A stretch of 64,000 bases of DNA from Trichoplax adhaerens (lineage: Eukaryota > Animalia > Placozoa), in contig NW_002060944.1 in assembly GCF_000150275.1 (NCBI RefSeq), positions 7,826,735-7,890,734 on the forward strand. The letters are read 5' to 3'. This document shows positions 11,101-59,774 of the stretch, in pieces (the first letter of the stretch is position 1; every line of letters begins with the position of its first letter). The notes under the pieces are model-generated. The model was not told the DNA's origin. It was given only the letters and a program-made list of their open reading frames with translations, and ran no database searches. The translations under genes and the position numbers were made by a program.

Positions 11101-14100
11101 TAAAATATATCAATGACTATAACTTTATATATCTTTTATTATTATATTTCTCATATAATTTTATTTCTTTCTTAAAAATTGTTTACAGAAACTTAGATGT
11201 TAATCGAATTACAGAAATCAAATCTCGAACATTTTATTATAATAATCAAATATACTTTTTGTATGTATTATAATTGTCATGATGAGCTGAGAATAGTATT
11301 TAATGTCTTTGATATCAAGTGATCCTATATGGATTAATTACTGATTACTGGATTTCTACGTATAATTTCATAAGTCAGGAGTTGCTTTATTCTACTATGA
11401 TAAAGCAAAAATTTCATCGTGGTCGTTACATGATTACATCAGTTTCCAATATTTCAACTAATTATATACCATTATGTCATTTACTGTCGCGTTCAGTTGA
11501 TTCGATTTTAAGTTAGCCACTATTAAAGGTAGAAATTATGCTATTGTGAATTTATTCTACTGTATAATCAGGATTTATCGATAAATTAGACGAGTAAAAT
11601 TACTGATTAGGTATATTATCTAAAAAAATTTTAGTGTATACTTCTAATCCCTGATTGGATTTATTCTAATTAATATTAAGAAGATATTTGTACTAAGAAG
11701 TAACTGTTTGGTTTGATTTCTTAAGTATCAGCACCTAATACTTTTATTTTTTGATTTAAAAGAAACCTCAGGTATAACTTTATCAGGAATTTTACCCATG
11801 CAGCTTTTAGTGAAAACAATGCACTTAAAACTTTGTAAGCAAATTAAAAATCGAAATATTTTTATACTGAACAAATTATATAATATTGTATTTTGAATAT
11901 AGCCTTAATATTCTAGCACGACGCATGTCATACATGCAAATATTAATGCAGTAAAGTGGACTACTAGGTTATTTTAATCTTTATAGCCTACCATTTCTTT
12001 TCGAGCAAGCCTACTTGTTAATCTTGTATAAATTTATCACTGTTTATAAATTAATCTAATTTAGAGCTTTGAATTATTTCTTCTTTCTATTTTAAATATA
12101 ACTAAGGAAAGTAGTTCGATTTATTTTTAACAACTAAAAACTATTCCTTCGTCGTTAAGTAATTCATCAATCCTGTTCTATAGTGAAAATTAACACATTC
12201 CACTTTCAAAACTATCTTAATTTATCATTTATTACGTATTTTTCCTTCAGGCAGCTCAATGACAATTCGATTACTCAACTTCGACCAGGAACAATTGACA
12301 GACTTCAAAATCTAAGTTCTTTGTAAGTTAAATATATATAAGGTTAATGTTATCCTAATCATATGTTAGTTTTATCATTGTTACGGTGATATTTAAGCTG
12401 ATATTATAAATTTCTAAGCCGTCTCAATGAATTATTCGGACAATTAATCTTAGCAGAAATATTCAAGATGATCGTTACAATCGCTAACGGGTTATTCGCA
12501 GTTTTTTAAATCTACGTTGGATTTCTGTCAGAGTCAAATTCAGATAATAACTATTTGTAATACAATCGTAATTTTATTAGAGTACATTAATGCAGAAATG
12601 AATATTGATGTATTATTTCAGCAAGCCATTGTTATAAATCCAGATTTTTAACGAGCAACTTAAACTGCAACTAATCTAATATCAGGCTTATTTTCCTTGA
12701 TAATTGCCTACAGTATGACTCAATACTCATGATCTCTGATAATTATTAGGAGGCGATAGTAACTATATATCTCTTTCGAAGTAAACTATAAACTCAAACT
12801 CAATTGAAAAACCAACTAATTTATAGTATAATTAAACAAAATGTTAATTATCAGTATTTAGATAACATAAAATTCCGCTAATATCTATGTAAGAACATTT
12901 AAAACGTCATAAATAAATCGTTACTAGTGCATTCCTAAATAAGTTACCTTACAATAACTATGTCTTAGCCGCTATATAATAGTTTATATTGACTCGAAAT
13001 ACCCACATTTTCTTGATCATAAAACCCTGATTGCTGGTTTATATAAGTTAATTTCCCTATAAGTATTCTAAAAATAAACACAGTGTGTATTTATTACATT
13101 CCTAGGTATATAGGAGGGAAGCATTTCACAAGATTTAAGGCTGACGATTTAAAACAATTCAAAAATTTAAAATTATTGTAAGTTCACTATCAGTAGTAAA
13201 TACTTCTTTTGATTTTGAATAACTTTGAACAAATAAGTATGCAAATTATGGTAAAATCACTAATTAAGTTGGACTATTTTACCGAATAAGTAGGTAAATG
13301 AAGTATTTAAAATAGTAATAAATTGATAGAATATTATTTACGTTCTTTTTGCCTGGTAAATATATTGAAAGGCAGTCTACGCACTCTTACCCTGTAATAT
13401 ATATGAAACAACATTAGAACATTTAAATCCGTTGCATATTTACTTAGTGATGCTTAATGGAATAATTGTTACCATTTTTAGATTATTTGTTTAAAATTTT
13501 AAATTATGATCAATTGGTTGCGGTAGTGCACATAAGTTCATTATAATAATTATCGATTTCAACACTAGTTTCGTCACGATAGTGTCCTTGTGTAATATGC
13601 AGTAACTTTATGAAGGACTTATCAAATCAGAATAGAGTATAGTTGTTGCTAATACTACATAATAAAAATGGCTGAAACTAATATGTAACATCTTGGACAT
13701 GATAGATACGTCCAATTTGGAAATTTTTCTTCTCCTCGGATCAACTTTCAAGCATTTGGCAATTTACGTGCTTTAAGTTTTTTGTTAGTAGCTAATAGAT
13801 CTGCGCAGAAATTATTCAATAACTGCATCAAGCCATAATATAGGACAAATAAATTGTCGATTTTTAAATTATATTTTAGAGCTTAAAATAAATTTTCTGT
13901 CAATGTCAAATACGCAGATTGCGAATTATTTTTTTAAATCTTTGGTATTTAGATTCATCAAAGCAATTGATAATGGGATGGTTACGATCACCTCGAGTGC
14001 ATTTTCAATGAATCCAAATTTAAGAATACTGTGTGTATTAGAAAATAAAATATATTCAGTCTAAATTTAAAAAGTTGCTGTTGATATATTAACTTAGTTT

Positions 14101-17100
14101 TTACGAATTCCTTAATTTTAGTTCATCAGTAGTGTTGTCTATTGAATTTTTTAAGCTCCTGATATCGAGCATGTAGTCACATTTACTTTGAATATAATTA
14201 ATACCGATTATAGCTTCTACAAAGTTAAATATCAGAAATTAAACAATATTAAATACGTTTGAACTTTCGAAGTGTACAACTGGCATATGCTATAACGTGC
14301 TTTTACTTTAATACAAAAAATGCAATCTTATCGCTAAATTCTATGATTCATACTTCACGATGTAAATGGAATTCTGACGCTACTAATAGCGTAATTGTGT
14401 TAAATAGAATCTCGATTTGACATTTTTTATATGTTGCTCTAGTTTTATAGAATATTGCTATGGTGTTCGGTATATAGAGAAAGGAGCTTTGGATAAATTA
14501 AAGAACCTTAAGTTCGTGTAAGTTTCTTACTCAATTTGTTTCGAGATTGTATTTCTTGCATACTTATTTTAAGCAATATTATAGCAATATCATATACACA
14601 CAAGTGGAAAATTTACCAAATGGTCTATTTAGTGAAAAACCGAAATTGGCAAAGTTGTGAGTTGACTCTCTTTTTACAGGCACAAAAATAATATTTCTAT
14701 TTTGATATGCCTTGATCTAGCAATTTCTTCGAGATACGAAAGTGAATTTAGCAAAATAAATCTAGGGAGTTAATAGCTTAGTTGAATGTCAGAATTTGCA
14801 GCTAGTATTAGAATTTCGGCATTCTGGTGCTTAGAAAGAGATTCTAATTTGGGATTGATAGTCAATCATTTAATTTTTATATTGTAGAAAGCTACGGATG
14901 AACAGCATTAGAGCAATACCTTATGGACTTTTTAATGGCTCAACAGCAATTCGAGAAATGTAAGTTCTCACCGTAGCGAGTTATCAAAGGTCTTAAAAAT
15001 AGTTATCTGCGAAACATTATAAATTCACTGTAGTAAGTATTAATTTCTTTATTTTATGCTTTAATTTTATTTTTATTGTTGGTAAAAAAATTTAAATCTG
15101 CATCGTATTTACTGTAGCTAATTCTATGCCCAATCAAAACTATTTTTATTAAGAACAAATAAAAGAAAGAGAGCACGTATATCATGTTTTCTAGGTGAAT
15201 GGATGCAATTTCGCTGTACCTAGATTTGCAATAATCTTGTATTGATTTCCGCTAATTGTAGTAGTATAGCAGGTGGCTAATAATAATAGCAGGAGACTAT
15301 TACTCGGTCACTACAAATGTGCAACCCAGTTTTAAATTACTCTTTTAAGGGTTCTGCATAAAAAATCGAAAGAAATCATATTTGTCCAGTTATAACCGGT
15401 TAAAGTATTAAAATATCTCACTCAGAACTTTTTCAAATCCAGCGAAGCCTAAATAAACTCAGATTATGTCTCAATCACGTTTACAATTCAAAATTATCCG
15501 GAGTAAAACTAGATTCTACTCTCGTAACCTCTCACCTAGCATCTCTAATACACCGTACTTAGTTTAGGACCTTAGTCACAGCCAAACACAGATTTGAAAC
15601 CTAGTTAAATCATTTTATTACAGAGATAACGGGCGCTGCTAAGTAACTCCGATGACAACTCGTCTTTAATTACTTTAGTATCTGACTTATATACCTGTAT
15701 ATCGCTATTTACAGATTTTCGTGTAAGGAAATATCAATGAAAAATTTAATAGATAAGTTACTTGACCGAATTCGGTACAATCTCTATGCTAAAAAATCAT
15801 AAATTACTTAGACTGCTAGCACTATTTATGGTTCTAATAAATTTCGAAGCTCGCATTGACGTTCTTATAGAAGTATAGCCAAATTACTAACTTTAGGCTA
15901 GTAAAATCATAATACTACATCAATCACTCATTGTTGTTGATATCTCTAACTTTCATTACACCCACTTATTTCTCGTGCCGAAATACATCCTACTCCAAAA
16001 CTATTGCAAAAACTATAGCGCTCTACTATTGTGGTACTAGTACAGCAATTATCCTTTGCATCCTCTTATTGTCAAATAAATACGAAAATTTATTTTGATA
16101 ACAATATCTAGTTAAATAGTAATCTCCTAACTCAAATGACGAGCTTACTTTCAGCTTATTTAACAAAATAATATTGAATGTAAGCTATGTGATAATACTT
16201 GTATGCAGTGATCATAAATTGAATAAATTTCATGTATAAGAAAATGTCATCGTTTTGGCTCGTGTACTAAAATCTGAAATAATATGCATTTATGTAGGGA
16301 CTTGTATAAGAATCGAATTGCATTGATCCAAAATGGAGCGTTTCGAGACTTAGCCAATTTGAAGTATTTGTAAGTAAATTTTAATAAATTTGCTTTCGTG
16401 CTAATTATTGATAATATCAATCAAACAAGGTTGATCATTTATTTACGAGAATATGTACAATTTATTATTTATCAATTTTCATTTTCTAAGATGGTATATT
16501 TAAAGTAATGTGAGACTACGAATTTAGATAGTAAGTTGTTGACACATAATTGATGATATTGCGATTTAGATACTTGAATAGTAATAACATCAAAACCATT
16601 GGCATGGAAACTTTCGCTGGCTTAACTAACCTTCAGCGTTTGTATGAATTTAATAAATAAGAAATATTATTTTACTAATTGATAATTATTATAATGCCCG
16701 TATTTATATTAAATTGCGTATTTGCTAGAATTTGCTCATCTTAGTAGAAATTATATAAGAAATTGACGGTAATTTACAGTACGACGTATTAATGAAATAC
16801 CCATCTGTAAATATGCTTTACGTTAATAGTATCTGATATTAGTATTCTCATTTCTGATTAGAGACCTCAATCATTTGCTAATATAAATTTCATCTTACTA
16901 TAGCTTAACTTCTTTATGGCGAGGATATAGTATACTTTGGTGTACTTCATAAAATCTATTATTTACTTCTATCGCCATTACATATGGACTTTTTTAATTG
17001 GCTTATTGCTTACGTTATGAATATATATTTTGATGTGTTGATATGTACGCGGTCGATATTTACATTTTACGTAAACATTAAATTAATGAGATGGTTTACT

Positions 17101-20100
17101 TTATAAACATTGCCGTAGCTTAATAGTAGTCTCATTATAGGAGGTTTTCAGGCCGATTACATTGTCGTTTTGAATGTAGAACCGCCGTTGTCCATTTCTT
17201 ATAATTTCATACTTCTTAGTTACAGAATTATTATGTAGCTTAAAAATTTCATTCCAGTCGCATTAGTATAATTTAACTATCTTCTTACATTTTAAAATTT
17301 AGAAAGTTATCTTCCAATCAAATCCCTCAATTGGTTAATAACACTTTTTCTGTGCTATCTTCACTTGAAGAGCTGTAAGTCTGGTTCAAATATAAATATT
17401 ATAGTAAGAAACTTTGAATAAAATTATATTTTTTGGATTGCTGAGATCATGCTTCATGTTAAATGGAAAATTTAGGCTGTCACCTAGCCAGACATTAAGA
17501 TGTTTTATTTTCATTATTAATAGTGAATTGTCTAGTAACCTTATTGAGATTATTGAATATCATGCATTTACTGGCTTGATTAGTATCAAGATTATGTAAG
17601 TGGTAAATTGATTTTAAATATAACCTTATTTCATCGTCTGAAGCTATTATGAGAGCAACGACGATTTTAAAAAATAATAGATGTCTTGGTTAAATATGCT
17701 CGAATAGTAGGGTTAATAACTTTTGAATTATAAAATCATAAAATGTTATGACATATATTAGAGCTCTTTCAAGTAATAACATCAGCAGGATTGAATGGCA
17801 AACTTTTGCAGGTTTTCCTAAGTTGGAAACGTTGTAAGTATATCTTATATAATCTTGGTAGCATTACCATTTAATACTCATTTTGCAAATAAACTTGGAA
17901 AGAATTTCTAAGGAGTAAACAATATATGTTTAAGTGAGCAAATCATTATAAGATTAGATTATATACTGATTACTACCTTCATAACGCACTAGCCTTTGCA
18001 TTACTTATAAGGTATTTAGATAATAACGCCATAGACAGCATTGAAACTGGAGCATTTGATGGCTCAAGTAGATTAAGAGAATTGTAAGTTCTGCAGATTA
18101 TTGTCGTATTTTGTATCACAGTGAAATTAAGTTTGTGAATTGTCATACTCATATAAATTAAAATTTAGATGGCTACAGGGAAATAATTTGATCATTATAA
18201 GCAGTGGTATGCTATCGGAATTAAATTATTTACAGATCTTGTGAGTATCGTTACAACTATAATTTTATCAATTTGAATTTAACTAAAATTAAATATCAAA
18301 CGGAATAAGTTCAAGTCCTATTTTTATTATCGTACGTGCTTGTATCTCTATGTGAATATTTCAGTCAAATGATAGTCTTAAGGCCAGATATATAAATATT
18401 TTTTTAGAATAGTACTACTGTGATGAGTTAATTGAGATTATACTAGGTATTATAGTGGATGATTTATCTAATTTATTATCTTAGACAATTATCCGACAAT
18501 CAAATAAGTCATTTAGATAATACAAGCTTAAATTCCCTAATTCATCTGAAGCTGTTGTAAGTAGCAATCCGACATATTTAACTAGAAGGGTATCATGATT
18601 TCTATAGGCAAAAGATTATAACTGAATTGACTAGTGGTTATACGGTATTTAATACGGGTGTTATAGTTACTTGTGAAGTACAGTATATATAGCTCATTAT
18701 TTAATAGCATTTATGCTTAACTGGTAATGTGTTTATTCCTTAGGAATTTGGCCAACAATAGACTTGCGAGTCTTTCTGCCATTGCCATGAACAGTTTAAC
18801 TTCTCTAAATGTCTTGTAAGCATTAAATATATTGATCAATCTTGTAGTTATGATGAAGTAGATTTAACAGTACTAGATAAATGCGAAATGTATAACATCG
18901 ATACAATATACTGTCATTTCTAGTTTATAACAATTTTGTTGTATGAATTTAATATATCATATATAACATGTTTGTCTAGATACTTGGATGAGAATGGACT
19001 AAAAGAATCTACTTTTATTCAAAAATTACGTTTACCTAAGCTGCGTCAATTGTAATAGGATACTTAATTGTTTTAATGTCAAATTACTCTGAAAACTATC
19101 TTATATGGACGCTGATTTATGATTTGCGATTGGTCTTGTTTTCTCTTTGGAAGATATTTAAGAAACAATCAGATTAGGGTTTTGGGACAAATTGTAATAG
19201 ATGAATTATACCAGTTACAGGCTATGTAAGTGCTGCTTGACAAATTATAATTACATCCCTAAATTATCATTTCTAGAGTATAAGTGGAACTTAAATTAAC
19301 CTTATTACAAAGGCTTGAGCTTTAAATTGCATCACGGATGTCGGTTGGCTACTCACCATTTCAATTTCGTTATTTCGTTTATAGAGCGTTAGATGGCAAC
19401 TTAATTGCCAGTTACGATAGTATTTTATCGACTCATAATATTAAAAAGATGTGAGTAAAGACTACATTTTATATGCTTCCTTACTTTTATAAATTCTATT
19501 ATAAGGTCAATTCAAGCTGTATGTTTTTTCATCACTACATAGTATTGACAGACATACATAATATTGTTATTTCATATCTAACTTTTCTTACCATTATTAG
19601 ATCGTTATCCAGGAGTAAGATTAGTAACCACTACCGCCAATTGATGAATATTTCCTTAACCTGTCGTAAACTGTATGAAAATTATAGTACACAATAGAAA
19701 GAGATTGAAAGTTGCACATATATCGAACATAGTTTCTTCCATTACAGATTTCTTGATATTAACTTAAATAAGGATTATTATTCAATAACTTTTTATCGAA
19801 AAGTTGTTGAATGGAATAGATTGATTGTAACAATCATTGGCAATAACAAATATCGAAATATATTGTCAATTGCCATTTAATGGTACAGCATCTAGGAGTA
19901 AAGCTAATATATCGTACTCTTGATGCTATAGGGATCTATCGCACAATTTTCTCTATGACTTACCTCAATTTAATCCTCAAGATCAAATAAAAATGTTGTA
20001 AGGCTACTTTTGTTTTTATCAATCAACATTGACTAGATTTTAAATTGTTGAAATATGATATTTAACATTATTGCTTAACGCAGGTAAGTTTTAGTCCATA

Positions 20101-23100
20101 AATGAACATTAGTTCATTAGACTATACTATTGAAATATCGGAATTATATTCATTTAATCTTACAGAATTATAGTACCTGCTATTAGAAGATTATTCAGTT
20201 AATGCACACATATGATATTGATAGTAATACACAGTAAATTTTCGGTATTCGATTCAAACCATTTTCCTATTTTCCTTTAGAAATTTATCCTATAATAGAA
20301 TAGCCTTTCTTACCGTGAAACATCTATCAAGTTTAACTTTTTTAGAACTACTGTAAGTTTATAAGTCTCATGTAGGCTAGGATATAGCACCATTTTTTGC
20401 ATAATAAAGGCAATTACGATTTTTACTAGTGATTTAAGAGGAAACAAAATAGCAAGTATTCCAACAGGATTTTTTCAAGGGTTAACTTGTCAAAAGTATC
20501 TTACAGATATGTAAGTAGTAATATATATATAATTTATGCTCGTTATTCAGGCCGTAGTAGATCAATCTAGATGAAGATTTAAGATCTAGCTTTTATCAAA
20601 TACAAGTGATTGCAAAAAATAAAAATCTGAATTGTCTTATGGTAACCTTAATGTATAGCAATTTATAAGGAAATCGGCTTGCTCATTTTTATGGAAACAC
20701 ATATAGTTCATTAAGCAATCTAGATTGTCTTATTATAACCTTATTGTATAGCAACTTATCAGGGAATCAACTTGCTTATCTTCGTGGAGATACATTTAGT
20801 TCATTAAGTAATCTAAAGCACTTGTAAGTTTAATTGAGATATAGAGAACTTTCAATTTAGGTGTTTTGATGGATTTAGTTCCGTACACAAACATCAGCTA
20901 TTAACTGTATTTTCTCGTCAATCACAATTTCTAATAAATTTTCTTTCAGACGAATTGATAGTAATCCCATCGACTCTAAACCATTTCTTAAGAATGTTTC
21001 AAGTTTGATAAGCCTGTAAGTTACATTATCTCTTTTCTATTGTTTATTTCCCAAGCAGTATAGTGAGCTATTACTTATCTATAATAGTAGATTAATAGCA
21101 TATTTTCATCATATATGAATTCTCTCCCTGTATTAAATAGGACATTAATCAATAACAAAATTAAATGCCTTAACGAAATCGTTATCAATGATTTAAAAAA
21201 TTTGCAAAACCTGTAAGTTAACCAATAGTTAATTCGATAAACTGTTCGATGCGTAGTCCAAATGTTTCTATATAATAGCAGAAATAATCTATAGAATTCA
21301 TCTTTCTATCTTTAACCGCTAGGGTGGAATTTCTTTGCAGATAGACAAATTATTTATTTCTACTAAAATATGATATCTTCTAGTTATATTCTGCAAAATA
21401 ACTAATCTATCGATGATTTTACTTTTAAGATCTGTACGACAAAATTTCATAACAAAGTTAAAATCTGCTTTATTTAAATCGCTGAAGAATCTTACTCTCC
21501 TGTAAGTTATAACATCTAATTGTATTAAATTATTTAATCGCTACTTTTAGCCTACTTTTTTCTGTCTTTTTCATGTCGATGCTATTATTTTTCGTACGTG
21601 TTATTTTTATCAATCGCATGACATCTTAAAACTAATTAATTTATTATTTGTTGACCTTACTACTGTTAATGTATATAATTGAATACTGCTATTTCTCAGA
21701 AATTATTATTGGTAAGCATTACTATTTGTAATGTGCTTATGAGGATTTAAGACGTTAAGTTTAATTCTATCCTAGCAAAGATGCCGATTTAAGTAAAAAA
21801 GGATGAAGTGTATAAATTATTCAGTCTCTTAAAACTTGCAAATTTTACGTATATATGTCACAAACCAGCTTTGTGACAAAGATAACGTAAAAGAAATCTC
21901 GAAATTACTATAGTCTCCAGGATTCAGTATCTCTTAACTATCTCACAAGAATTTAGACGCCTTTGCTTCTACGTTAAACAACTATAGAACTCTTTTTATT
22001 CTACTACCTGCCGAACTTGAATATCCTTCGGCAGCTGCTATCATATATGAGTCATAACAGTTCATGAAAATTAGTTCATATTGGATAGCTAAATTAATAC
22101 AGAAATTATTCATAATCTTAGACATGTACTGAACGACTCTAGATAATTAGATTACAGTATATCCGTACACAGAATTATTTATAGTATCATCTATAATTGA
22201 ATATCTTCAGGATATTCATCACAAGCCTTACAAGATATAACACTGTACACTACAATCAATTAATATTAGTTACTGTATAAGAACTCTTACCACAGTACAG
22301 CGCAATTTACTGTAACAAAATAATAACTTCTGCAGTTCTTACTGTAAGTTATTATTAGTTGTCTCCATATATAAATGTTAACCACCAAATTTAATCATTT
22401 AGTCTTCACGGTAGTTTGTACCGTGGCAATATAATACTAATTTTTATGCTCTACTTACCTTGGCCAAATGGCTAATACCTTAAAATTTGGTTGTATGGTG
22501 TCACGCTTAATTTTTCGTAACTCTGTAGTAAAATTATCTTGAAGGGGAATTCTAAGGTTAACCTTTGTTAAATCTCACTGCCGTAAATGCAAAAAGCTAT
22601 AAATTAAGATAGAAAATTTAACGTGTCATCTCAATGTGGCTGATTAAAGCTGTAGTTAGATTTTACTGAAGAAATAAAATTATAAGCGATATTAGAATTA
22701 GAATGTATTTGATGTAGGTCCTCAAAACCTGTACTTGATTATTAGAGACCTCTCTTCGAATAAGATCAGTATCATCGAGAACGGTACTTTCGATGGACTG
22801 TGCCAACTTCAGCTCCTGTAGGTATCTAGTGTATAGCCAAAATTTATGCTATAAGATATTTGAAAAAATTCACTCTTTCAATACAATAGCAACTTGAGCA
22901 TAAGATATTATATATAGCTGTTGATTTCCCATTCTATAAAGTTTCAAATTTTCTACCTTATAGGTCTTTAAATCATAATCGAATAGCAAGTTTAACATTT
23001 CTCCGCTTTTCCAGTTTAAAGAATTTGCAGAAAATGTTAGTTATACTCAAAGCGAATTTGATTGATAAAGCTGAATAAACTTGACTTTTCTTCACAGATC

Positions 23101-26100
23101 GTTAATTGATAATCAAATTAAAGAATTAGATGAGGAAGATTTTAAAAGTCTTAATGGCCTAGAAGCAATGTTAGATATAGATCTATTATTGATAATAATA
23201 ATGACATTTTCGATTTATTTTACGATTCTAGGAGCTCATGATTACGGCGTAAAATTATACTTATTCTATTTATCTTCGTAGTTATTTGGATTACAATTCT
23301 ATTTCGAGCATAAAAGATACAAGTTTTACTCAACTTAATAAACTTCAAATTCTGTAAGTAGCGTACTATTATGAATGAGAAAAAGCGTTCTTCAAACACA
23401 TATTCTGTTCCTGTATTAGTAGTTTGAAAACTAAGCGTCAATTTAATTCGCTGCTGATTTCAATCATTATTTCCATATTTCTAAATTAGTTCCGTAAGCC
23501 ATAATAACATCAGAGAATTAATTTGCAAGTGTCGTTACCACCAACTACCAGAAATCTCTTTAAAATCAATGTAATTCGTGAGCCATAAATATACTTGAAA
23601 GTGAATGCGTTAAATCATGATGTAGATTATCAATATGGCTATTCATTTTACTAACTTTCCGCCATCAATATTATTTTCACTGGTTAAGGTTCCTAAAATA
23701 TAATAATATTGAATTCATATCAGATCAATGCTATTCCCTCTTTGAAATTCTGACTGATGAATTGTAAGCTTCATGGAATATTGCGTACTTAATTATTAAG
23801 GGATTAAATATAAATATTCAGTATCTATGCGAGAATATACTTTAGCGATTTATGGTAGCATGTTTGTTATTTAACTTACGATTCTTTTAAATTTCAGGGA
23901 TGTCAGTTTTAATAAATTGGCTTCTAATGTCCCTGAATTTGTCGATCAAATATTTCGTCGAGATTTAAGACTTATTCGGCTGTGAGACTAAATTTAAAAA
24001 CGGATACTAATTTTAATCATCGAATGTGCTATGGAAATGTGTCGTTAATATTTTAAACCGTTCTGTTCGAAGAAATAGATTATATTGGAATGACATAATT
24101 AAATATGTTTTACATAAAACTTTTTTTTATAGTGGAATTAGCGGAAATAGAATTACACATTTATGGCAAGCATATCAGAATGGTCTCTTTAGAAAAGAAA
24201 TAGGATTGTAAGCTGTTCAATTTATTAGATTAATTACTGAGGTTTTCGGTAAATTCATTATCAATTATTGAGTTTGTCATGATATAAATCTCCAATTTAA
24301 ATCTTGGTGCTATTTCTTTCGTTCCAGGGATATTAGTTACAATGATTTACCAATTGATGAAGTACAACGTTTGATTAGCAATGTGTTCCCTCTCCACTCT
24401 TGTCATCGCAACGCAATAAATGGATGGTATAATGTCTTTGTTACACCATGGGTCTTCCGCTGTTGGTTTATGTACTTGTATGTTAGATATGTTTCGTTTT
24501 AATTCTTTGCTGTTATATATTCTAAATTTATATGTAAAATTTCTACAAATATATAAATTGGGATAGTAATCTATTTGTGCTACTACTACTGACAGAGGTT
24601 TAAGCGGTTTAAAGTTACAGAAACTTCCAACCAACAGTTTACGAAATCTAGAAGGTTTAATCTACGCATTGTAAGTAGATGCTAGTCTCAATTTTAAGCC
24701 GTTTGGTAGTACTGTATAGTCTAGTCAGAAATGGAAGCTATTATACTTATACTATGTTCATGGTAGTTAATATCTAGTTTGAAGAACTTTTAACCGGTGA
24801 AAACAGTGATTGTAATAAGTCCTACAGTTTTATAGCAACCCTTTATTAATATAATATGATCATTCTCGTTGCTTTCTCATTGCTATATACTGTACTTACA
24901 TAAAAGTAATTTTAAATTCATTTGGGTTTTAATATTTCCACGATCGCTTATCTACGCAGCGTGAATTTTGCATAATTTTCATATAACTGCTAGTACTTGG
25001 CTCATAAAGTAACAAACTACTAGTCTTTTTTTGCAATATGCCTAAATGTAAGGTATATCTAAATTCTTACTAACGTTTTGAGATGTCTGCTTCGTATTAA
25101 GTTTGGAATTTACCGTTATACATTGTATAATTGTATAATAATAATATTAAGCATACGGTATAAATTTGTAGCTAACGTGAAATATTTAATTTAGGTATTT
25201 GAACAATAATAATTTGACTGAGTTTGATGTTGAAGATATTTTTTATGGAAGCGATAGTAATATGCGGGAACTGTAAGATCGGAAAGCTAAAATTTATAGC
25301 GAAAATTAATGCTTCTACGTTTGCTCGCTTGAGCAATGAATAAGATAATCGAGTAGTTTGTGATAGTCTCTTTATATTTAAAGATATACATAATTTGTCG
25401 TTTAAAATATATCCTAGCCAACTTTCCAGTAACAACTTGAAAGCTATTACAAATAGACAGAATATTCGCTTCTTAAAATTGCAGCTCTTGTAAGTTCACA
25501 AACATAACGATTATCATACGTAAATATATTTATCAATTTTAGTTAATACTCGACAGTCTACCTGTAGTCTCATACTTGTCCTTGTTTACATCTATGAATA
25601 TATCTTGAAGTGGTAGCTACAAAGTTTTCACTTCATAATACAAAAAATACTTGAAGCAATAAAAATATATGCATTACTGATTTGCTCCAGGAATATATCG
25701 GACAACGATATCTCGAACTTTTGCAATAATGACTGGCAGAAATTTGCTCCAAAGCTAGAAATGATGTATGAATTTATGATTAATGCAAGCATTAAATGTT
25801 TAAATTCTTACTTTGAAATATGAATGCTATATGTTATCCTCAGATGATTAAAAAAAATTAGCCGTTATTTATTTGAAGGAATACTTTTACGAGTATATAA
25901 CATATCTCTGCATTATATATATAATTAATTAATTAATCGATAGTTTCGTATCGATAAATTTGGAGTAGAAAATGCATATTGCTCACTTCTTTTTGACTGC
26001 TTTTTAATTATTTCATACTATAATAGCTATGCTGATCGATCAAATATCAAAGTGTTACAATCAAGGTGTCTGCAAAGGTTATCTAATCTTCGGTTACTGT

Positions 26101-28446
26101 AAGTACTGTCTTTTGATGATTTTAATCGATTTAACTATAAATTAATTTAAAAATATTATACCTGTACTAAAAGATCATTAAAGGATAATCCATTAACATC
26201 AGTTCATGCGCAGTCTCTTTATGGGCCTCTAGACTTATCAACAACGTAAGTTTAATTTAGGAAGCTATAAGAACGCATTAGGGAATAGAGAACTAATAAA
26301 TATTGAATAGCACAAATGTTTTCATCCTTAATCTTGAAATAGCCTCGTAATTCCTTCCATACTAGCACTCTGACTGTCAGTAGGTGAAATTCTAGTTAAT
26401 ACGTAAAGCAAACTATTATATTAGAACATACCTATGTCGAACAATGTTCTTATTTTCACCATAGCTTATGCTGTAACGACAATTGCAACACAGATAATTT
26501 CTCTGTTGAAAGTATAGCTAGTTCTAAGTTGGCTGCTACTAAGCGTTTCTAGTCATAACGACCTAGCTTTACTACATTAGTCAGCTAAATACTTAAAAAT
26601 AGCTCCACACTAGGCAAAAAAGTCTTTGTAATAAAATGGATTTTCACTACGGTTTCATCTAACATTTCTCTTTACATAGTTAATTATGAAACTCTTATAT
26701 ACCTTTAACAAGAATAGCCTGTACATCAATGATATTTAAAACATATATAAATTATATAGTCTTTATAAGATAAAATTAGTATAGATTTATGTGAGACGCA
26801 TTCTTATTAATTCATTTTACTCGCTATTCAGCTCGACAATTAACAACTAGCTATATTTTCTCGCTCTGTTATACGAAAACAACCATTTTAAATTCTATCA
26901 CTCCAAATTCCCATTAAAAGTATAATTTCTTACCAATATTTATTATTATAACAGTTTCTGAAAATTAACAATTTAATCATATTTTTCATTAACAGTTTTA
27001 TGAGTGCATTAATGATTTTATTATATCTTTAAGATATCTATACCGCAACACTTACTAACTTATAGTAACCCTTTAGTATTTATTTGACTACTGTAACATC
27101 TCTTCTAAGATAATCTATTAGAGTAACCTTAATCATGCTTTAATCTACGGCAAACAAGACTAATGCAAAATTGAAGAATATATAATTATAATTCTTTTAG
27201 CGTTATAGGAACATATAATTTAATTTAGAACAAACTAGGTCTATGAATCTTTCCACGACTATTACGTTACCTAGCTTTAGCTATTACAGCTATTTTTTAA
27301 ATTAATCAATTCCATCTTTAATATCGCTTTACTTTGGAATCTAGTCTGACGAACCGTGACTACTTTTGCTGTATGGTTCCGGCTAAAGTAACAACGTGTC
27401 AACCTATAATTATTGAGTCATTATCAAGTTGTCAGCATTTATTATCTCATTTATCCCTGCGACTCTATATCTGGATTGCTGGTAGCATGGCATTTGTTGG
27501 TAATATATTGGTATTCTGCTCCCATTGGAAAACTTCAGATAAAGATCGATCGAAGAAAATTTTTCACTTACTCTTAATTAATTTAAGTGTAGCCGATTTT
27601 TTAATGTCTATCTATTTGTTTATAATCGCGATTGCTGATCAATTTTATCATAATCAATATGGTCAATATTCAGAAAATTGGTTAAGAAGTACACCTTGTC
27701 TATTAGCCTTTTTTTTTGGTAGTTTATCGAGCATCATGTCGGTCTTGATGATGTTGCTAATTAGTATTGATCTTCGCTTACGTACTGTTCACCCAATTCG
27801 ATATCGAAGCCGAAATCATAAATATAACAGTTTCAGAACGATAATCATCCTGTTCTGGTTGTTATGTATATTCTATGTCGGAATAGCTACGATTACAAGT
27901 ACTAATGCTGCTGGTAACGATCGAATTTATAAATATAGCAGCATTTGTATGCCCAATAATATAGAGAATGCTTATTTTAAAACGTGGATTTTAATTATTA
28001 CATTTTTAACCGTTTGTACATGGTTAATAATTTGTGTATTATACTATTTAGTCTTCAAAAAAACATATCGAAGTAGTGCTTCAGTATATCGCACATCAGT
28101 AGCATCAGATCGAAAACTAGCAAGGAAATTATCCGTCATATTATTAACTGATTTAATGTCGTGGCTTCCTTACTATTTTATCATGTGCAAAGTTCTCTTT
28201 ACAAATTCTCTGGATATCTTTGAGCTAAAATTTGTAATCATAATTGCATTACCGATTAATTCAGCTCTTAATCCGTTCTTGTACAGTTATAATTATTTTA
28301 TTACGCCATGTATTTGCCGAATAGCTCAGGACGGTAAATCAATGGCACCACATCAATGTAGTAGATTACCGGCTTCAGTTCGAGACACGAATCTTAATCG
28401 AACTTTTACTATGAGTCATGGTCGTTATGAAGAATATAGAGTATAA
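8166..28446 (+). CDS. Giant LRR-containing GPCR (LGR-like) gene A: signal peptide, LRRNT, 48 LRR exons, hinge, rhodopsin-class 7TM; ~1623 aa
   Basis: Signal exon 8166-8226 (MIKFIIKLQFYVLLYSFSNYG) and LRRNT exon 9937-10066 (C..YCTC......C). Phase-2 GT-AG LRR exons start at 10189, 10347, 10580, 11014, 11189, 11763, 12251, 13106, 13706, 13953, 14443, 14585, 14888, 16298, 16570, 17303, 17524, 17762, 18012, 18169, 18485, 18744, 18980, 19154, 19385, 19601, 19932, 20281, 20430, 20752, 20950, 21141, 21430, 22746, 22964, 23098, 23282, 23490, 23689, 23898, 24133, 24328, 24596, 25195, 25418, 25691, 26027, 26174. They are mostly 72 nt, open, and read xLxxNxI..I....F..L..L..L. Terminal exon 27345-28446 has YFCC...TCQP...SSCQHLL, NLSVADFLM, CMP, TDLMSWLP, PINSALNPFLY. 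Confidence 0.9.
8531..8870. mobile_element. Degenerate solo-LTR-like element in gene A intron 1
   Basis: TATTACAAATTT start and TCACGACA end. Internal similarity to 4584-4790. TSD is weak (ACTAT/GTTAT). Confidence 0.45.
9263..9907. mobile_element. Solo-LTR-like element, family 1, in gene A intron 1
   Basis: (G)GTTACAGTGTTATACACTGTAA ... TTGTTGCAAAGCTATTTTGTAACA, flanked by ATGTA/ATATA. Homologous to 29371-29871 and 59145-59774. Confidence 0.8.
15307..15657. mobile_element. Solo-LTR-like insertion in a gene A intron
   Basis: ACTCG|GTCAC...GATGACA|ACTCG: perfect 5-bp direct repeat around (T)GTCA...TGACA termini. Confidence 0.6.
16108..16179 (+). pseudogene. Dead LRR exon of gene A (counterpart of live gene B exon 39624-39695)
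   Basis: 72 nt ending in an intact GTAAGC donor, but the acceptor reads AT instead of AG and the frame has TAG, TAA and TGA. Reads *LNSNLLTQMTSLLSAYLTK*Y* versus YLNDNQLTKLTSSIFAHLSKLTI in B. Confidence 0.8.
20659..20722 (+). pseudogene. Truncated tandem duplicate of LRR exon 20752-20823
   Basis: 93-bp duplication including the acceptor (AACCTTAATGTATAG vs AACCTTATTGTATAG). The copy has TAA at 20666-20668 and no donor. Confidence 0.8.
21856..22428. mobile_element. Solo-LTR-like element, family 2, in a gene A intron
   Basis: ATATA|TGTCACAAACCAGCTTTGTGACA...CACGGTAGTTTGTACCGTGGCA|ATATA with perfect 5-bp TSD. Homologous to 33474-33915. Confidence 0.85.
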
Positions 28447-29370: not shown

Positions 29371-29871
29371 TGTTACTGTGTTATACACTGTAATATCGAG
29401 ATTAGAGCAGAAATATCTAGGTAAGGATAATTTACAATTCAAATTATTGTGATTGTAACTTACTTGTGGTAGATTATAGATTATCATGGAAATGTTCCAT
29501 GATAGGACATATCGTAATCTGACTAATTTGCATTAGTCATTAGATGTCTATGCTCGTAAATACCGTTGTCATTAGTAGGTAGCAGTAGATAAAATTAGCT
29601 ATTGATTCATTAAAAGGTTTCAATGTAAATATTACTAAGCAGACTGTCTAACTATTGTGAAAGAGTATATAAATGCGGTATATCGTATAAAAATGAGAGT
29701 TTTTAAGATTAGTGCTTAACGTAAAATACGTGGCGTCTAAATCTTTTTAGAGTCTACTAGTGTAAGAAAAGCGTTCCTTATAGGGTAGATATTGCTCCCT
29801 GATCAATGATTAGGGAATCGGTTTATTGATCGCATATTACGTTATCTTGTTGCAGAGCATCTTTTGTAATA
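29371..29871. mobile_element. Family 1 solo-LTR-like element nested in 29287-31032
   Basis: GGTCT|TGTTAC...TGTAATA|GGTTT. The empty site ACGGTCT|CCTTAAT is present at 56454-56467. Confidence 0.85.
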
Positions 29872-33091: not shown

Positions 33092-36000
33092 ATGGAGATA
33101 AAACACATCATTCTACTTTGTTGGTATATTTTACTTTGCTCTCTTTGCAACTACGGTAAAGGAAAAATTTTATGGCCGTGCTATTGCTTTTAAAGTCTCT
33201 GATTTATTAAATTCACCCTAGAATAGATTCATTTATATAGCGTTGACTTGAAATGGAATATTTTAATTCAATTTTAAACTGCATAAATACTTCATACTAT
33301 CCAGTAATTTACTAAGTATTGCTACGGTATAGCTAATATCAAATTTTGACAACGGTAAATATCGTAAGCAAAATAGCTGACAGTGAAATGGGTAAATTGT
33401 TATTTATTTCTGTCTATGATATTCGATATTACAAATTATTTTCGTGCTACGTATAACATTAAATATAATCTTATGTCACAAACCAGCTTCGTGACAAGGA
33501 TAACGCAAAATAAATCTCTAAATTACTATAGTCTCCGGGATTCAGTATCCCTTAACTACCTCACAAGAATTTAGACGCCTTTGATTCTACGTTAAACTCA
33601 ACTAGACAATTGAGAACTACTTTATTCAAATATCTGACGGGCTTATATACCCATCTACAGCAGCTAACATTCACGAGTTATCTTATAAAAATACTTAGGT
33701 GAGAACATCTACTAACTAGTTTTTCACAGTCGGACTACAATATGTCCATTCACAGAATCATTTCAGTGCACATTACAGCACAGCATTAAATTTACTATAA
33801 CACATTTATAATTAGAGTAATTCCTATTGTAAGTAACTAGTTGTAATATAATATCACTATATTATATTAACCAAATTTAGATGGCTATTTCTTCACGGTA
33901 GTTCGTACCGTGACATCTTAATATTACAGTCGATTTTAATAATGATTACGGGAACTTTGATTAATTAAATGATAAAATATACTTGATGGAGTGGATTAAA
34001 GGAGATCTCTTTAGGTGATAGGCCAATTTCTTTATCCTTAGTTTATTATGTGTAATTATCTATCATAGTTTGATTCGTATGAATCATTTCAGTAGAGACT
34101 CATTTTTGTAGCTGAAACAGAATATATTTTTTAAACCTGTCAATTTGAGTTCTATAGAACGACAACAATGCCTCTTAAATATTTGATTTTTCGCCATCAT
34201 AATTTAAAGTTCAAAGGCCGTTAATAGTAATTCAAATTAACCTCTAATAAATACTTTTCAAATACTTTATTTTTTAGGTACGCAGAGTAAAACATTTGAT
34301 TGTGCTGTACATTGTACTTGCCAAAAGGAAATCATGCAATGCCTTGGCTCTGAAATGCATGAAATACCAACTATCTTAGAACGAAATCAATCTAAATTTA
34401 CAACTTTGTGAGGAATAAGGAATAGAAGCAGAGTTATACTAATCAATACTTTGAAAAAATTATTATACTATTTTGCAATTCATGACTTACAAATATCACT
34501 TTTATTTTATCTATAATATAACATAATTAGAAAGATTAAAAGGACAGGAATAGAGAAATTAATAAATGGAAGTTTTTTATCCTATCACGGACTGAGAAAG
34601 CTGTAATTTTTGCCTTTTATCGATAAGTGACAGTATTTCATGATCGGTGACAGCTCTAATGCTTTTGATGTATCTTCTGAAATAGAAACTTAAGATTTAA
34701 TAAGATTCAATCTATTGAAAATAATTCTTTCATTGGTTTAGAAGGATTATCTGAACTGTAAGTTATTTATTCAGTTTATGTATTAAATTTACTTCATTTT
34801 TAGCTAATTAATCTATTTAATCCTTTCGTTATGATAATACGATTATTAAATTGCTAGAATTATTGTCTTATTAAGTTGATAAAATTTGAGTAGAAAAATT
34901 ATATTTTTATTTACACTAGCGATTTAACTGGGAATAGAATTAGCGTCTTATCGCAAGAAATGTTGACTGGACTAAAGAATGTATGGAATTTGTAAGTTAA
35001 ACTTGTTACTACATGTTTAATTTGTTATTGAATATCTCTCGGATTTACTTTATCATATATAATAAATAGTAAGGATTAGTAGTTACAGCTCAATATTGTG
35101 TTTATTTAAAAAGCTAATATTTAATTGAGATATGTTCGTATCGTTGACAACGGACAACAATGGACCATTTTATATGAAATAGATCAATATTTCATAGATC
35201 TGTGATGAAAAATTTTCGCGAATCTATATTAATAACTGACAATGATGTGATCTAAATTTATAGAATTTTAATGGATAATTTAATCACTCAAATCTTTGTC
35301 GATACATTTAGCCGACTGAAAAGTTTACGTGTGCTGTTAAGTATTTGGCCAAACTTCAATTTCTATAGCTCTTCAATTTTCCATACGTACGCGTATTTAC
35401 ATTATATTATTTTTATATTCTTATTTTTTGAATATAACGTATAGAAACTTAAGTTATAACCGGATTGCAGAAATTCAACCCAAAACATTTTATTACAATA
35501 ATAAAATGTTCTATTTGTACGTATAAAAAATATCATGATAAACTTAGAATAGGATTTATAGCTCGAAGATACTCAGTAATCATATCCAGAGCTAAGTACA
35601 ATTTTTTATTAAATTGCCAAATTCTTTCACACATCATCTACTTCGGGTATTGTATAATAAGGATCTCATATTAGTTTTCATAAAAATAGTTATGTTGACT
35701 ACAATTAAAACGTAGCTGTCAAAGCAATTACATTGTTGCCGCAAAGCTAAGACTTTACTGCAACCGCCAAATAGTTACACTGATTTTGATTATGTTAAGT
35801 ATTTAGGTATATACGTTCTAATTACAGTTCTTAATATTCGGTAGGCGAGTACTACAAATTAATTTTGTAATAAAGTACGTTAAATCTTTCAATGTCGTTT
35901 TTGAATAGCATAGCTATTAATAGTTTTAGAAACAATTCCATGGTTACAACGTAAATATCTTATGACTAAATATAGTATGCGTAGACTACATAATGTTCAT

Positions 36001-39000
36001 TTGAGAGACTGCTATCAGCAGTAAGTACTATATTTAATAAAAAAACTTATACAAACTAGAAATTACCTGAACGGGGCTAAACTAACAAAATTATTCGAAC
36101 GCGGTAATGACTATTGATCACCATAGTAGCATAATACTGTAATAGGAATGTTATTATATTAGATAACGTTAGAAAGCTCAGAATATTTGATCATGAGCTT
36201 ATTTCGTAACCAGAACTCCGTCGATATTTTGTAGGAGTACAATTATTGATATTCTTTTCCTTAAACTTTTTCAGAACATATCTTCAAAAAATTATCCAAT
36301 AGCTAATTTTATCTATTGAAATCAATTAAGAGATATCCGTAATACCTAAATTTTTACCTTTTACTGATCAGTATTCATACCGATATTAATTGATTTAATA
36401 GGAACTTAAAACGTAATTTTATGCGAAGTTTTACATCTGAAGCATTCAGTAAAAACAATACTCTTCAAAACTTGTAAGTTGGTGAAAAATAGTTTAATTT
36501 TGAAGATATTCTTGTATTGCTGTTTTTTTGATTTGTGATAGTGGATAATCATACTGGAAATAACTTTATTTATTTATGCAGTTATATGACATTTCTATCT
36601 TCAATTAAGTCATCACTTCTGTTTACAATAACAATTAAACAGTTTTCATTTCATTACTATCTTAATTTACAGTCTATTGTATATTTGTAAATTAGAAAAT
36701 TGCACGATAATTTCATGGTGCAACTTCGTCAAGGATCAATGGATACAGTTCCGAACTTGAATTATTTGTAAGTTGAATAGATAAAAAATTGAATGTATTT
36801 TAGCCACAATTTTAGCTGCGGTCTTGATGACGGTGATATTTAAATTGATTTACTAAATTTTAAAGTTATAATCTGAGCAAATATGGTACCGATAATTGTT
36901 TTTTATGTTTGTATATCTTTCCTGTCTATCTAAAGAATCTATAAATGTGATATGATTACTACTATAGAAGTCTTAGCCGATCAACGAGATAGTCAATATT
37001 TTTGTATCTATATATACATGCTCTCAAATCATAATTAAATTTTGATTGATCCTTCTCTAGAAGAATCGCTTATCTTAATCTAAGGCTATAGCAGATTAGT
37101 CTTAATTTCCAATCTGTTGAAGATCATTATATCTAACATCAATTGGATCAGTAATTACGAAAAGATCCTTATATTTTTATTTTCATTCGCTTCATCACCT
37201 TTCTATTGATTTAATGCAGCTTCATCAATAAAGCTATGTATATATAATATACGTGCATCTGAAAGTTTTTAATGTAGAAATGACAAATCTTATCTTACTT
37301 CCGGAACTTTTTAAAATTAATAATAAATGTCTTACATCATTCTCAATGATGCAACATTAAATGATGTTTATTCATCTTTTAAATCTTAGATTTAAAATAT
37401 AAATTACTCAATAGCGATAACTTTATACAATCATAGTTTGGTTACTGGGTAGCTAAGGTCATAATGAATGCTAGTATTTCATATAGCCATATTGTTGCTC
37501 TTGTATGCTTTATTTCTTGGTTTAATTATGTTAATTTCTATAACAGAGTTTCCGGAATTCATTATAATCTGTATAATTACATATTTAGGTATATTGGAGG
37601 GAAGTTCTTCACAGGATTTGACGCAAACAGTTTACATCAGTTTAATAATTTAAAATTATTGTAAGTTCCCTTAGCGATATTAATATTTGAACCACATTAA
37701 AATATTTTAAGCCAAGAAATAATGCAGTTGTCAACGATTTTATTGATTAGCTAAACTATGACCTATAATGTGCTGAAATAATGCTTGCTATTGCTTCAGA
37801 TTATTTGTTAGATGTACCAGTATTTTTTAAAGGCTAGAATTTTTGCGTAGGTTTATTGTAGATTTTTACTTTACTTTAGTTAAGGTTAAACTAATATGGT
37901 TGGATTTTATTTTGTTAAACGTGACTGTATTCGATCAGATTTGACTAGAGAAAAAGGTATTATTGATATTTGTAGAAGATAAAAATAGCTGTAGTCAATA
38001 TAATTTTTTTGTCGTTGCAGATACATTCGATTTGGAAATTTTTCCGCTCTTCAGATCAATTCTCAAACATTTGCCAATTTATCTACTTTGACTGACTTGT
38101 TCGTAATTTTTTAAATCTATGTTATTCAAGAATGACATAAATATTATTGTTTATTAAAACCGAGTTTTGATTTCTAATATTTGATAATATATCGTAAATC
38201 TTGGACTATGATCTAATTTGCAGATTACGAATCAGATTTATGCAATCTCGATATACTTTACTATAATTAGAAACATCGGAGCAATTAATACAGGGAAGAT
38301 TACAATTGCTTCTAAGGCATTTTCGATGAATCGAAATTTGAAGAGACTGTGAGTAGCAGCCAGTAAATTTTATGCGTATCTTTCATGTGGTGTACTTTTA
38401 TGCTGTCATAAAGTAACGGTAAAGTTATGGTGTAGGATTAGACATCAAATTGTAAGTATGTTTCTAGTACGTTAGAATATTGCAATGGTATCTGCGGTAT
38501 AGAAAATCGCGCATTGGACCGGTTAACGAAACTCTTTTCGGTGTAAGTTTTTTATTTACAAAGTCTAGTCGAGTTTATGTATATCAGCGCTATGATTTGA
38601 TAAATCAAAATAATTATAATTTAAAGTTTGTTTAAGCGCTAGATAGTTAGATCTTGTTGACATAAATTAAATTCTAATTATAACTATATTAATTCTTACT
38701 CTTATTGTGCATTTCTTTTATAATTATTACGTATAATTTCAAAGTAATATCAGGTACACACGTATAGAAAATTTGCCTCTTGGATTATTCAGTGAGAAAC
38801 CAAACCTAAGAATAGTGTAAGTTGGCTTTCTTTATGCAGTACAAATGTGCAATGGATCGAATCATAAAATAAGCATGAGCTATTTTAAAGTAATTGCAAT
38901 TATAATAAAAGTAAGAAAAAAGCTATGCGGTTCTTTGATGATTTCATAGCTTGATAGTAGAATTTGGTATGCTCTTTAAGAAGTTGTTACCCTCCTGATT

Positions 39001-59144: not shown

Positions 59145-59774
59145 TGTGACAGTATTATATACTGTATTAGAGTAGAAATATCTATATTAGGATAATTCTG
59201 TTAGCCTATTCTTATTTAGTTAACTTCTAATTTGGATATACTGTGTTTTAATATAGCACTGACTTTTTATGATAGTGACACATATACACATACTGAAATT
59301 AATAGTTATAATAGGGAATGCGAATCATCTACTTACAGTTCGAATCGTTGTGATTGTAACCTACTTATGGTAGATTGTAAATTATCGTGGAAATGGTCCG
59401 TGATAGGACATATCGTAATCTGACTTTTCTGTATTAGTCATCAGATGTCTATGTTCGTAAATACTGTTGTCTGCATTAAGGGAGCAGTAGCTAAAATTAA
59501 TATTTAATTCAGTGAATGATTCCAAAGTTAATCATACTAACTATGACTCATGAACTATTGAGGAAGAGTATATCAATGCAGTATATCGTGTAATAAAGAG
59601 GATTCTTAAACTTAGTGTTTAACGTAAAATACGAGGCGTCTAAGTCTTTGTGTAGTCTGCTAGTAGAGCAAAAGTATTTCTGATAGTGCAGATATCGTTC
59701 CTTGATACGTGGTTCAAGGAATTGACTTATTGATTGTACATTACGTTATCTTGTTGCAAAGCTGTTTTGTGACA
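59145..59774. mobile_element. Solo-LTR-like element, family 1
   Basis: TGTGACAGTATTATATACTGTA...TTGTTGCAAAGCTGTTTTGTGACA. Full-length homology to 9263-9907. Confidence 0.82.

What the first reader, a model, noticed from the sequence alone, without database searches (positions are those of the whole stretch)
24328..24477. Cys-bounded hypervariable 'island' loop inserted in one LRR, six repeats before the hinge
Seen: this exon is 150 nt in A and 144 nt in B (48458-48601) instead of ~72. The flanks are conserved (DISYNxLPxDEV..LI.N.FPL..C and RCW..YL). The segment between the two cysteines is unalignable and differs in length: C-HRNAINGWYNVFVTPWVFR-C (19 aa, 24401-24463) versus C-RYFRRIGRESILLYMSR-C (17 aa, 48531-48587). 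It appears to be the most divergent coding segment between the paralogs. Known analogues: the ligand-binding island domains of plant BRI1/PSKR near the membrane-proximal LRRs, the lamprey VLR LRRCT insert, and the TLR7-9 Z-loop. Inference: a disulfide-closed, CDR-like specificity loop or protease-cleavage loop in an animal LRR-GPCR.
Basis: partly seen in the sequence, partly recalled or inferred. Interest (0 to 1): 0.8.

Follow-up and report, generated by a model that had tools for sequence, protein, structure and literature searches.

The report
Cysteine-pinned variable loop in placozoan receptors
Two neighbouring Trichoplax receptor genes, and four more distant relatives, carry a short, fast-changing, mostly arginine-rich loop between two fixed cysteines in their long leucine-rich-repeat arm; it is likely a disulfide-pinned surface loop rather than an antibody-like specificity site, and its job is untested.

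Summary
The window has two tandem Trichoplax LRR-GPCR (LGR) genes with 48 LRR exons each. Exon 42 is 150/144 nt, and RNA contigs from three studies carry A's exon whole, so there is no micro-intron. The loop is the most divergent A/B segment (identity 0.11, next lowest 0.42). The Cys pair is kept in 6 of 9 paralogs found, around loops of 7-19 residues.

The 'CDR-like' reading is not supported. Loop dN/dS is about 1 (95% CI 0.56-2.1, against 0.21 elsewhere). The loop is identical in 4 of 4 strain/assembly pairs. By LRR grammar it sits in the non-concave part of the repeat. It is not plain drift either: Arg is 12 of 77 residues against 4.4% expected, and 4 of 6 loops hold paired basic residues (post hoc).

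Best reading: a likely disulfide-pinned, basic surface hairpin at an Asn-ladder break (0.45). Rivals are a paralog-specific ligand loop (0.23) and a protease-cleavage loop (0.22). The family is published (41 Trichoplax-specific LGRs); the loop was not found in the papers searched. Inserts in LRR solenoids are a known kind.

The parts
24328..24477 (+). Gene A LRR exon 42 of 48 (150 nt): strand, amphipathic helix, Cys-x19-Cys loop, start of next strand
   Evidence: (RNA joints)
24401..24463 (+). Gene A Cys-x19-Cys loop (2 Arg, no acidic residue, 5 aromatic, no paired basics)
48458..48601 (+). Gene B LRR exon 42 of 48 (144 nt)
48531..48587 (+). Gene B Cys-x17-Cys loop (5 Arg, paired basics and RxxR)
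24596..24670 (+). Gene A exon 43, the repeat after the loop; Leu replaces the ladder Asn
48704..48778 (+). Gene B exon 43, same Asn-ladder break
23490..25272 (+). Gene A irregular block, exons 38-44 (75-150 nt instead of 72), predicted helices on the convex side
9938..28446 (+). Gene A: Cys-rich N-cap exon, 48 LRR exons, hinge + 7TM exon (27345-28446); signal-peptide exon not located
34280..52798 (+). Gene B: tandem paralog with the same exon plan; hinge + 7TM exon 51574-52798

Best explanation
Repeat 42 of these placozoan LRR-GPCRs carries a spliced-in insert between two conserved cysteines that likely form a disulfide, pinning out a basic surface hairpin whose exact sequence is likely not read by any ligand. 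SHOWN: the exon and its splicing; the Cys pair in 6 of 9 paralogs, with the second Cys always four residues before the next repeat's first Leu/Ile; the loss of the ladder Asn in the next repeat; neutral-rate substitution and 7-19-residue length change inside the loop; Arg enrichment. PREDICTED (low confidence): a helix-turn-helix in A and B, leaving the solenoid after the convex helix. INFERRED: the disulfide closes the base of the loop, so the solenoid keeps its register whatever lies inside, and indels and substitutions accumulate at the neutral rate. Selection would act only on frame, the two Cys and overall character (basic, Leu-poor, no extra Cys). The loop and its irregular neighbours (repeats 38-44) would form an elbow between the long N-terminal arm (dN 0.21) and the six conserved membrane-proximal repeats (dN 0.10). 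Any binding by the loop would be charge-based and broad (polyanions, membranes), not paralog-specific.
For: Splicing. Cys pair and spacing in A, B, C (P0004), D (P0006/P0005), G (P0221/P0220), H (P0222). D, G and H all give a 40-residue repeat and lie in different parts of a partly unresolved tree, while the 48-50-residue form is confined to the A/B/C clade (100/100), so the long loop is likely an expansion of a short ancestral one. Loop pN 0.527 at the most favourable gap placement, against LRR pS 0.534 (Fisher P 1.0) and LRR pN 0.174 (P 2e-7); dN/dS CI 0.56-2.1. Loop DNA identity with free gaps is 0.66, the same as 26 short introns, 0.66. Loops are identical between the window and the H2 proteins (A, B) and between T. 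adhaerens and H2 records (D, G). Three of nine paralogs lack the Cys pair, so the family can do without it. Asn-ladder break at exon 43. Models.
Against: dN/dS near 1 on 17 codons of one pair cannot tell relaxation from a mix of positive and purifying sites, and other gap placements give pN up to 0.80. The composition departs from neutral intron DNA: Arg 12/77 against 0.044 (P 1e-4), Leu 3/77 against 0.138 (P 0.004), and A's loop GC is above 98.5% of open intron windows. Five aromatic residues in A's 19 are typical of binding sites (general knowledge). Strain pairs differ by only 2-8 residues per protein, so identical loops are weak evidence. The disulfide and the loop's direction were not measured; pLDDT is 47-54 there.
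Confidence: 0.45

Rival explanations
1. Paralog-specific ligand loop (island/VLR-insert-like). The hairpin folds over the edge of the solenoid and, with the membrane-proximal repeats, forms a ligand site that differs between paralogs.
For: Most divergent segment, flanked by well-conserved repeats (next three exons 0.81 identical; dN 0.10). Aromatic and Arg-rich. Position near the membrane resembles plant islands followed by four LRRs (PMC13006823, passage). The insert ends right before a concave strand. The CI of dN/dS reaches 2.1.
Against: Point estimate of dN/dS is about 1; no allelic change in 4 of 4 pairs (weak). Exposed strand-side positions along the whole arm are also more variable than the rest (0.59 against 0.70 identity over 33 exons), so specificity can be carried by the ordinary LRR face. 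The loop is only 7-9 residues in D, G and H.
Confidence: 0.23
2. Proteolytic processing loop (TSHR-hinge or TLR7 Z-loop-like). A convertase or extracellular protease cuts at basic residues in the loop, and the flanking disulfide keeps the two halves of the ectodomain linked.
For: Paired basic residues in 4 of 6 loops. P 3e-4 against ectodomain windows and 7e-4 against open intron windows; with A/B/C collapsed to one lineage, P 0.001-0.028 (motif chosen after seeing the loops). A Cys pair on both sides is what such linkage needs. Precedents: TSHR cleavage into disulfide-linked subunits (PMC5401882, passage); TLR7 Z-loop cleavage with a linking disulfide (PMC9865772, passage).
Against: A, the focal gene, and H have no paired basics; H has no basic residue in the loop at all. 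Closed loops of 7-9 residues may be poor convertase substrates (general knowledge). Surface loops are a better null than the backgrounds used and were not available.
Confidence: 0.22
3. Degenerate second LRR: the exon arose by fusion of two 72-75-nt exons (144 = 2 x 72, 150 = 2 x 75) and the second repeat decayed.
For: Exon lengths; a loose LRR-like spacing can be read into A's loop (inspection).
Against: The distant paralogs D, G and H have a 40-residue repeat, not 48-50. B and C show no LRR pattern. Pfam finds nothing in either exon at E <= 0.1. Neither model builds a strand from the loop.
Confidence: 0.05
4. Artefact: micro-intron or mis-called exon.
For: None found.
Against: RNA contigs of three studies run through exon A without a gap; the Cys pair recurs in six paralogs.
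Confidence: 0.01

Closest known systems
Trichoplax-specific LGRs (41 of 46 T. adhaerens LGRs; PMC9545775, section 5 read in full, Table S2 read)
   Same: LRR ectodomain with an unusually high repeat number, own Cys-rich hinge, class A 7TM, tandem gene clusters; orphan.
   Different: The review describes repeat number and hinge only (zero hits for 'insertion'); 48 repeats here against 34 in its example. Which Tadh-LGR numbers A and B are could not be determined from its accessions.
FSHR/TSHR hinge hairpin loop (type A LGRs; PMC4561518, PMC6281744, PMC5401882, passages)
   Same: A disulfide-tethered loop inserted between two parallel strands of the LRR solenoid of an animal GPCR, preceded by a helix; cleaved in TSHR.
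   Different: There it lies between the last two strands, in the hinge, and carries a sulfotyrosine that binds hormone. Here it is six repeats upstream, separate from a short hinge, basic rather than acidic, and 7-19 residues long.
LGR4/LGR5 LRR11-12 Asn-ladder break (PMC4561518, passage)
   Same: Loss of the ladder Asn some six repeats before the hinge, which in LGR4/5 splits the solenoid into two sheets; LGR4 is the top Foldseek match of the B model (E 1e-22, TM 0.39).
   Different: The passages seen describe no Cys-bounded variable insert in LGR4/5; 17 repeats against 48.
Plant island domains (LRR-RLPs, PMC13006823 passage; BRI1/PSKR recalled)
   Same: Non-LRR insert a few repeats before the membrane.
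   Different: Four LRRs follow there, six here. The BRI1 island is much longer, about 70 residues (recalled). No homology, and interior folding is not shown here.
TLR7-9 Z-loop (PMC9865772, passage)
   Same: Insert between two LRRs; disulfide-linked halves after cleavage in TLR7.
   Different: The Z-loop is unstructured and cleavage is required; neither is shown here. The TLR9 fold hits cover TLR9's C-terminal part (chain range 476-792) and tie with unrelated LRR proteins.
Lamprey VLR LRRCT hypervariable insert (PMC3900441, passages)
   Same: Length- and sequence-variable protrusion next to an LRR sheet.
   Different: The VLR insert is in the C-cap and diversified somatically. This one is a germline difference between paralogs, in a repeat, unchanged between strains.

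Membership tests
LGR (LRR-containing class A GPCR) | LRR ectodomain | tested here: met
   Pfam LRR_8 E 3e-83 on P0001; 48 LRR exons
LGR (LRR-containing class A GPCR) | Rhodopsin-family 7TM | tested here: met
   PF00001 E 8e-22; LGR4, TSHR, FSHR and LHCGR lead the fold search
LGR (LRR-containing class A GPCR) | Cys-rich hinge | tested here: met
   CC-x8-C-x10/11-C before TM1 in 8 of 8 Trichoplax proteins printed
Trichoplax-specific LGRs | Unusually many LRRs | tested here: met
   48, against 7-18 in types A-C
Trichoplax-specific LGRs | Clade outside types A, B and C | tested here: inconclusive
   9 Trichoplax rows form one side of a 100/100 branch against 9 GRL101/RXFP-like rows (6 of 15 outgroup candidates dropped); no type A or B rows, midpoint root
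Trichoplax-specific LGRs | Own hinge type as drawn in the review's figure | not testable with these tools
   Figures are not held; only the legend was read
Type C LGR (RXFP/GRL101; the database label) | N-terminal LDLa module(s) | tested here: not met
   LDLa profile from 7 modules: no hit in six frames of the window (best E 0.22), 4 of 4 held-out controls found
Type C LGR (RXFP/GRL101; the database label) | About 7-10 LRRs | tested here: not met
   48
Plant-type island domain | Insert followed by four LRRs | tested here: not met
   Six LRR exons follow
Plant-type island domain | Folds into the solenoid interior and binds ligand | not testable with these tools
   No coordinates returned; loop pLDDT 47-54
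VLR-type hypervariable insert | Lies in the LRRCT cap | tested here: not met
   Repeat 42 of 48
VLR-type hypervariable insert | Varies between alleles or cells | tested here: inconclusive
   Identical in 4 of 4 strain/assembly pairs, but these differ by under 1%; contigs drop rare variants
TLR7-9 Z-loop / TSHR cleavage loop | Proteolytic cleavage in the loop | not testable with these tools
   Paired basics in 4 of 6 loops, none in A
FSHR-type hinge hairpin | Between the last two strands, in the hinge | tested here: not met
   Six repeats upstream of a separate short hinge

The most novel reading that the evidence does not exclude
A large orphan GPCR family in a nerveless animal has evolved a disulfide-closed, Arg-rich cassette six repeats above the membrane that acts as the paralog-specific sensor, either as a ligand-binding island or as a protease bait whose cleavage switches the receptor. 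This would be an animal GPCR counterpart of plant island domains, and would give a handle for finding the ligands of about 40 placozoan receptors.
Probability: 0.3. Interest if true: 0.75.

Novelty: new variant of a known kind. Interest (0 to 1): 0.42.

Why it matters
Trichoplax has 41 lineage-specific LGRs with no known ligand (PMC9545775). This loop is a small, bounded, swappable element present in several branches of that family, so it is the obvious first target for swap, deletion and cleavage assays. If it is a sensor, it shows a third independent use of an LRR insert for recognition or activation, inside an animal GPCR and away from the hinge. If it is only a tolerated excursion, it is a neat natural example of a disulfide-pinned insertion site in an LRR solenoid, and little more.

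Tried and rejected
No whole genome is held for the window, so paralogs could not be extracted genome-wide; only 9 of about 41 were seen, through protein searches. The HMMER search of 1.84 billion representatives was swamped by generic LRR proteins; its best 150 added two Trichoplax paralogs, P0139 and P0188. No placozoan other than Trichoplax appeared in any search. A strict pattern for the looped repeat matched 5 of 303 fetched proteins, all Trichoplax; it misses G and P0005, so absence elsewhere is weakly tested. The ESM Atlas gave only generic LRR clusters. Fold searches of the A model gave generic LRR folds with tied scores: ribonuclease inhibitor Z 22.6 (rmsd 3.2, 309 aligned), LRRK2 22.0, TLR9 21.1; the TLR9 hit was rejected as evidence for a Z-loop. 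A first LDLa profile (1 module) failed its control and was rebuilt. The S-S distance could not be measured, as models are not delivered to the script box. Site-level codon models were not possible with DNA for only two paralogs. A planned six-sequence 7TM alignment as a search query was not made, so the last search used one paralog alone and family coverage is incomplete. No complex prediction was sent, as no binding partner is claimed. No earlier scan notes exist for this place. Literature: searches found no description of this loop. The library lacks most subscription journals, and Image_2.pdf of PMC9545775 could not be read; its other image supplements were not opened.

Full report
What the locus is. 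The window is AT-rich (about 30% GC) and holds a tandem duplication. The long ORF at 27322-28446 matches a Trichoplax sp. H2 protein labelled 'GRL101-like' at 99% (P0001); the second gene matches P0002. Pairing exons between the two genes gave 48 LRR exons each, a Cys-rich N-cap exon and one hinge + 7TM exon; the signal-peptide exon was not located. Pfam confirms LRR_8 and 7tm_1. The database label is misleading: there is no LDLa module in any frame of the window, while 4 of 4 controls were found. The genes fit the 41 'T. adhaerens-specific LGRs' with many repeats and their own hinge described in PMC9545775 (section 5 read whole; Table S2). Exact membership could not be mapped.

The observation. 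The exon is number 42 of 48; the other 47 are 66-84 nt. RNA contigs from 3 of 4 runs laid, from three studies, splice into and out of exon A and run through it without a gap. For B the two joints are seen once each at low depth. The loop is the lowest-identity window of the A/B alignment, 0.11 against 0.42 for the next (1489 windows). The DNA of the loops still aligns above chance (P 0.0025), so they diverged in place.

The family. Four protein searches gave nine distinct Trichoplax paralogs. Six have the Cys pair: A (19 residues between), B (17), C/P0004 (17), D/P0006 (8), G/P0221 (7) and H/P0222 (9). In all six the second Cys is four residues before the next repeat. F/P0188 has a longer, 59-residue repeat without the first Cys. 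E/P0007 has a plain 27-residue repeat. I/P0139 shows none, but its gene model appears to skip exons there. 7TM identities among the nine are 37-82%. A/B/C form a 100/100 clade; D, G and H, with 40-residue repeats, lie outside it in a partly open tree (18 rows; 6 of 15 outgroup candidates dropped; midpoint root). The short loop is therefore likely ancestral (inference). No non-Trichoplax protein among 303 fetched matched a strict pattern.

How it evolves. Between A and B, LRR codons outside the loop have dN 0.197 and dS 0.933; the six repeats after the loop have dN 0.10. The loop has pN 0.527 at the best in-frame gap placement (range 0.53-0.80 over all placements); the highest 17-codon window elsewhere is 0.37. 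Loop pN is indistinguishable from the synonymous rate (Fisher P 1.0) and far above pN elsewhere (P 2e-7); dN/dS is about 1, CI 0.56-2.1. Loop DNA identity equals that of 26 short introns (0.66). The window differs from P0001 at 2 of 1208 residues, none in the loop. B's loop equals P0002's, and D's and G's loops are identical between the T. adhaerens and H2 records; C could not be compared because P0003 skips the exon. These pairs are too close for a strong test. Against pure drift: Arg is 12 of 77 loop residues (4.4% in translated introns, P 1e-4), Leu 3 of 77 (P 0.004), and paired basics occur in 4 of 6 loops (P 3e-4 to 7e-4; 0.001-0.028 with A/B/C collapsed). These tests were chosen after seeing the sequences, and six classes were tried.

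Structure. AlphaFold2 on A residues 499-877 (5 sequences; mean pLDDT 75.7) gives strand 152-154, helix 162-170, helix 176-184, a low-confidence turn, helix 193-199 and strand 201-204, with Cys at 178 and 198. The B model (12 sequences; pLDDT 80.0) gives the same order, with Cys252 in helix 250-258 and Cys270 ending helix 261-270. Loop pLDDT is 47-54. This is compatible with a disulfide at the base of a helical hairpin, but no distance could be measured. The insert follows the convex helix and ends just before the next concave strand, so it may point outward or fold over the edge. The next repeat lacks the ladder Asn in both genes, and repeats 38-44 are all irregular in length. Fold searches gave generic LRR folds for A and LGR4, TSHR, FSHR and LHCGR for B.

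Mechanism. I commit to a disulfide-pinned, basic surface hairpin at a structural elbow, whose inner sequence is free because the Cys pair holds the register (0.45). A paralog-specific ligand loop (0.23) and a cleavage loop (0.22) remain live. The data cannot separate them: 17 codons in one pair are too few, and the focal gene A lacks the paired basic residues that favour cleavage. Fusion of two exons (0.05) is disfavoured by the 40-residue form; a micro-intron is refuted for A.

Comparison with the known. Inserts in LRR solenoids are a known kind: the FSHR hairpin between the last two strands (PMC4561518, PMC6281744; passages), the cleaved TSHR hinge (PMC5401882; passage), the TLR7 Z-loop (PMC9865772; passage), plant islands followed by four LRRs (PMC13006823; passage) and the VLR LRRCT insert (PMC3900441; passages). 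This loop belongs to none of these by position or sequence. PMC4079206 and PMC6321704 (passages) did not mention it. Searches found no description; subscription journals are largely outside the library. BRI1/PSKR details are recalled, not read.

Verdict. A real, apparently undescribed feature of a known orphan receptor family; a new variant of a known kind. The 'hypervariable CDR' label overstates the evidence, but the conserved Cys pair and basic character make it a sensible, cheap target for experiments. Interest 0.42.

Noticed in passing
window 48458-49497, minus strand: One RNA contig (X6, depth about 4) has joints 48591>48702 and 48774>49397 with CT..AC ends and perfect minus-strand GTAAGT donors: possibly a spliced antisense RNA across B's loop exon, starting in a repeated element. 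One contig only.
   Followed up: partly
window 49604-49681: B's exon 44 has AT instead of GT at its donor in the window; an RNA contig splices there (joint read AT..AG). A strain variant, an assembly error or a damaged allele.
   Followed up: partly
window 54232-55174: A third, partial 7TM copy (TM2 onward), 88% like B at DNA level, with a frameshift near 54740; the H2 model P0002 ends like this copy.
   Followed up: partly
window 27345-28446 and 51574-52798: dS between A and B is 0.42 in hinge + 7TM but 0.93 in the LRR exons, hinting at later gene conversion in the 7TM exon.
   Followed up: no
window 13106-14656 and 37589-38816: A second irregular block, LRR exons 8-12, lacks the ladder Asn in five consecutive repeats in both genes; two of the next most divergent windows lie in or beside it.
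   Followed up: no
window 9264-9910, 29372-29869, 59146-59777; 21854-22055, 33472-33916, 44999-45441: Two families of dispersed 200-650-bp repeats, likely transposon-derived; one pair is 97% identical and inverted (33474-33916 against 44999-45441). One copy sits just upstream of A's N-cap exon.
   Followed up: no
P0188 (Trichoplax sp. H2 paralog F): It has a longer insert at the same place (59-residue repeat) without the first Cys: a different loop type in the same slot.
   Followed up: partly
P0001, P0002, P0003, P0005 database gene models: Public models skip several LRR exons, and P0003 skips the loop exon altogether, so repeat counts from databases are too low.
   Followed up: yes
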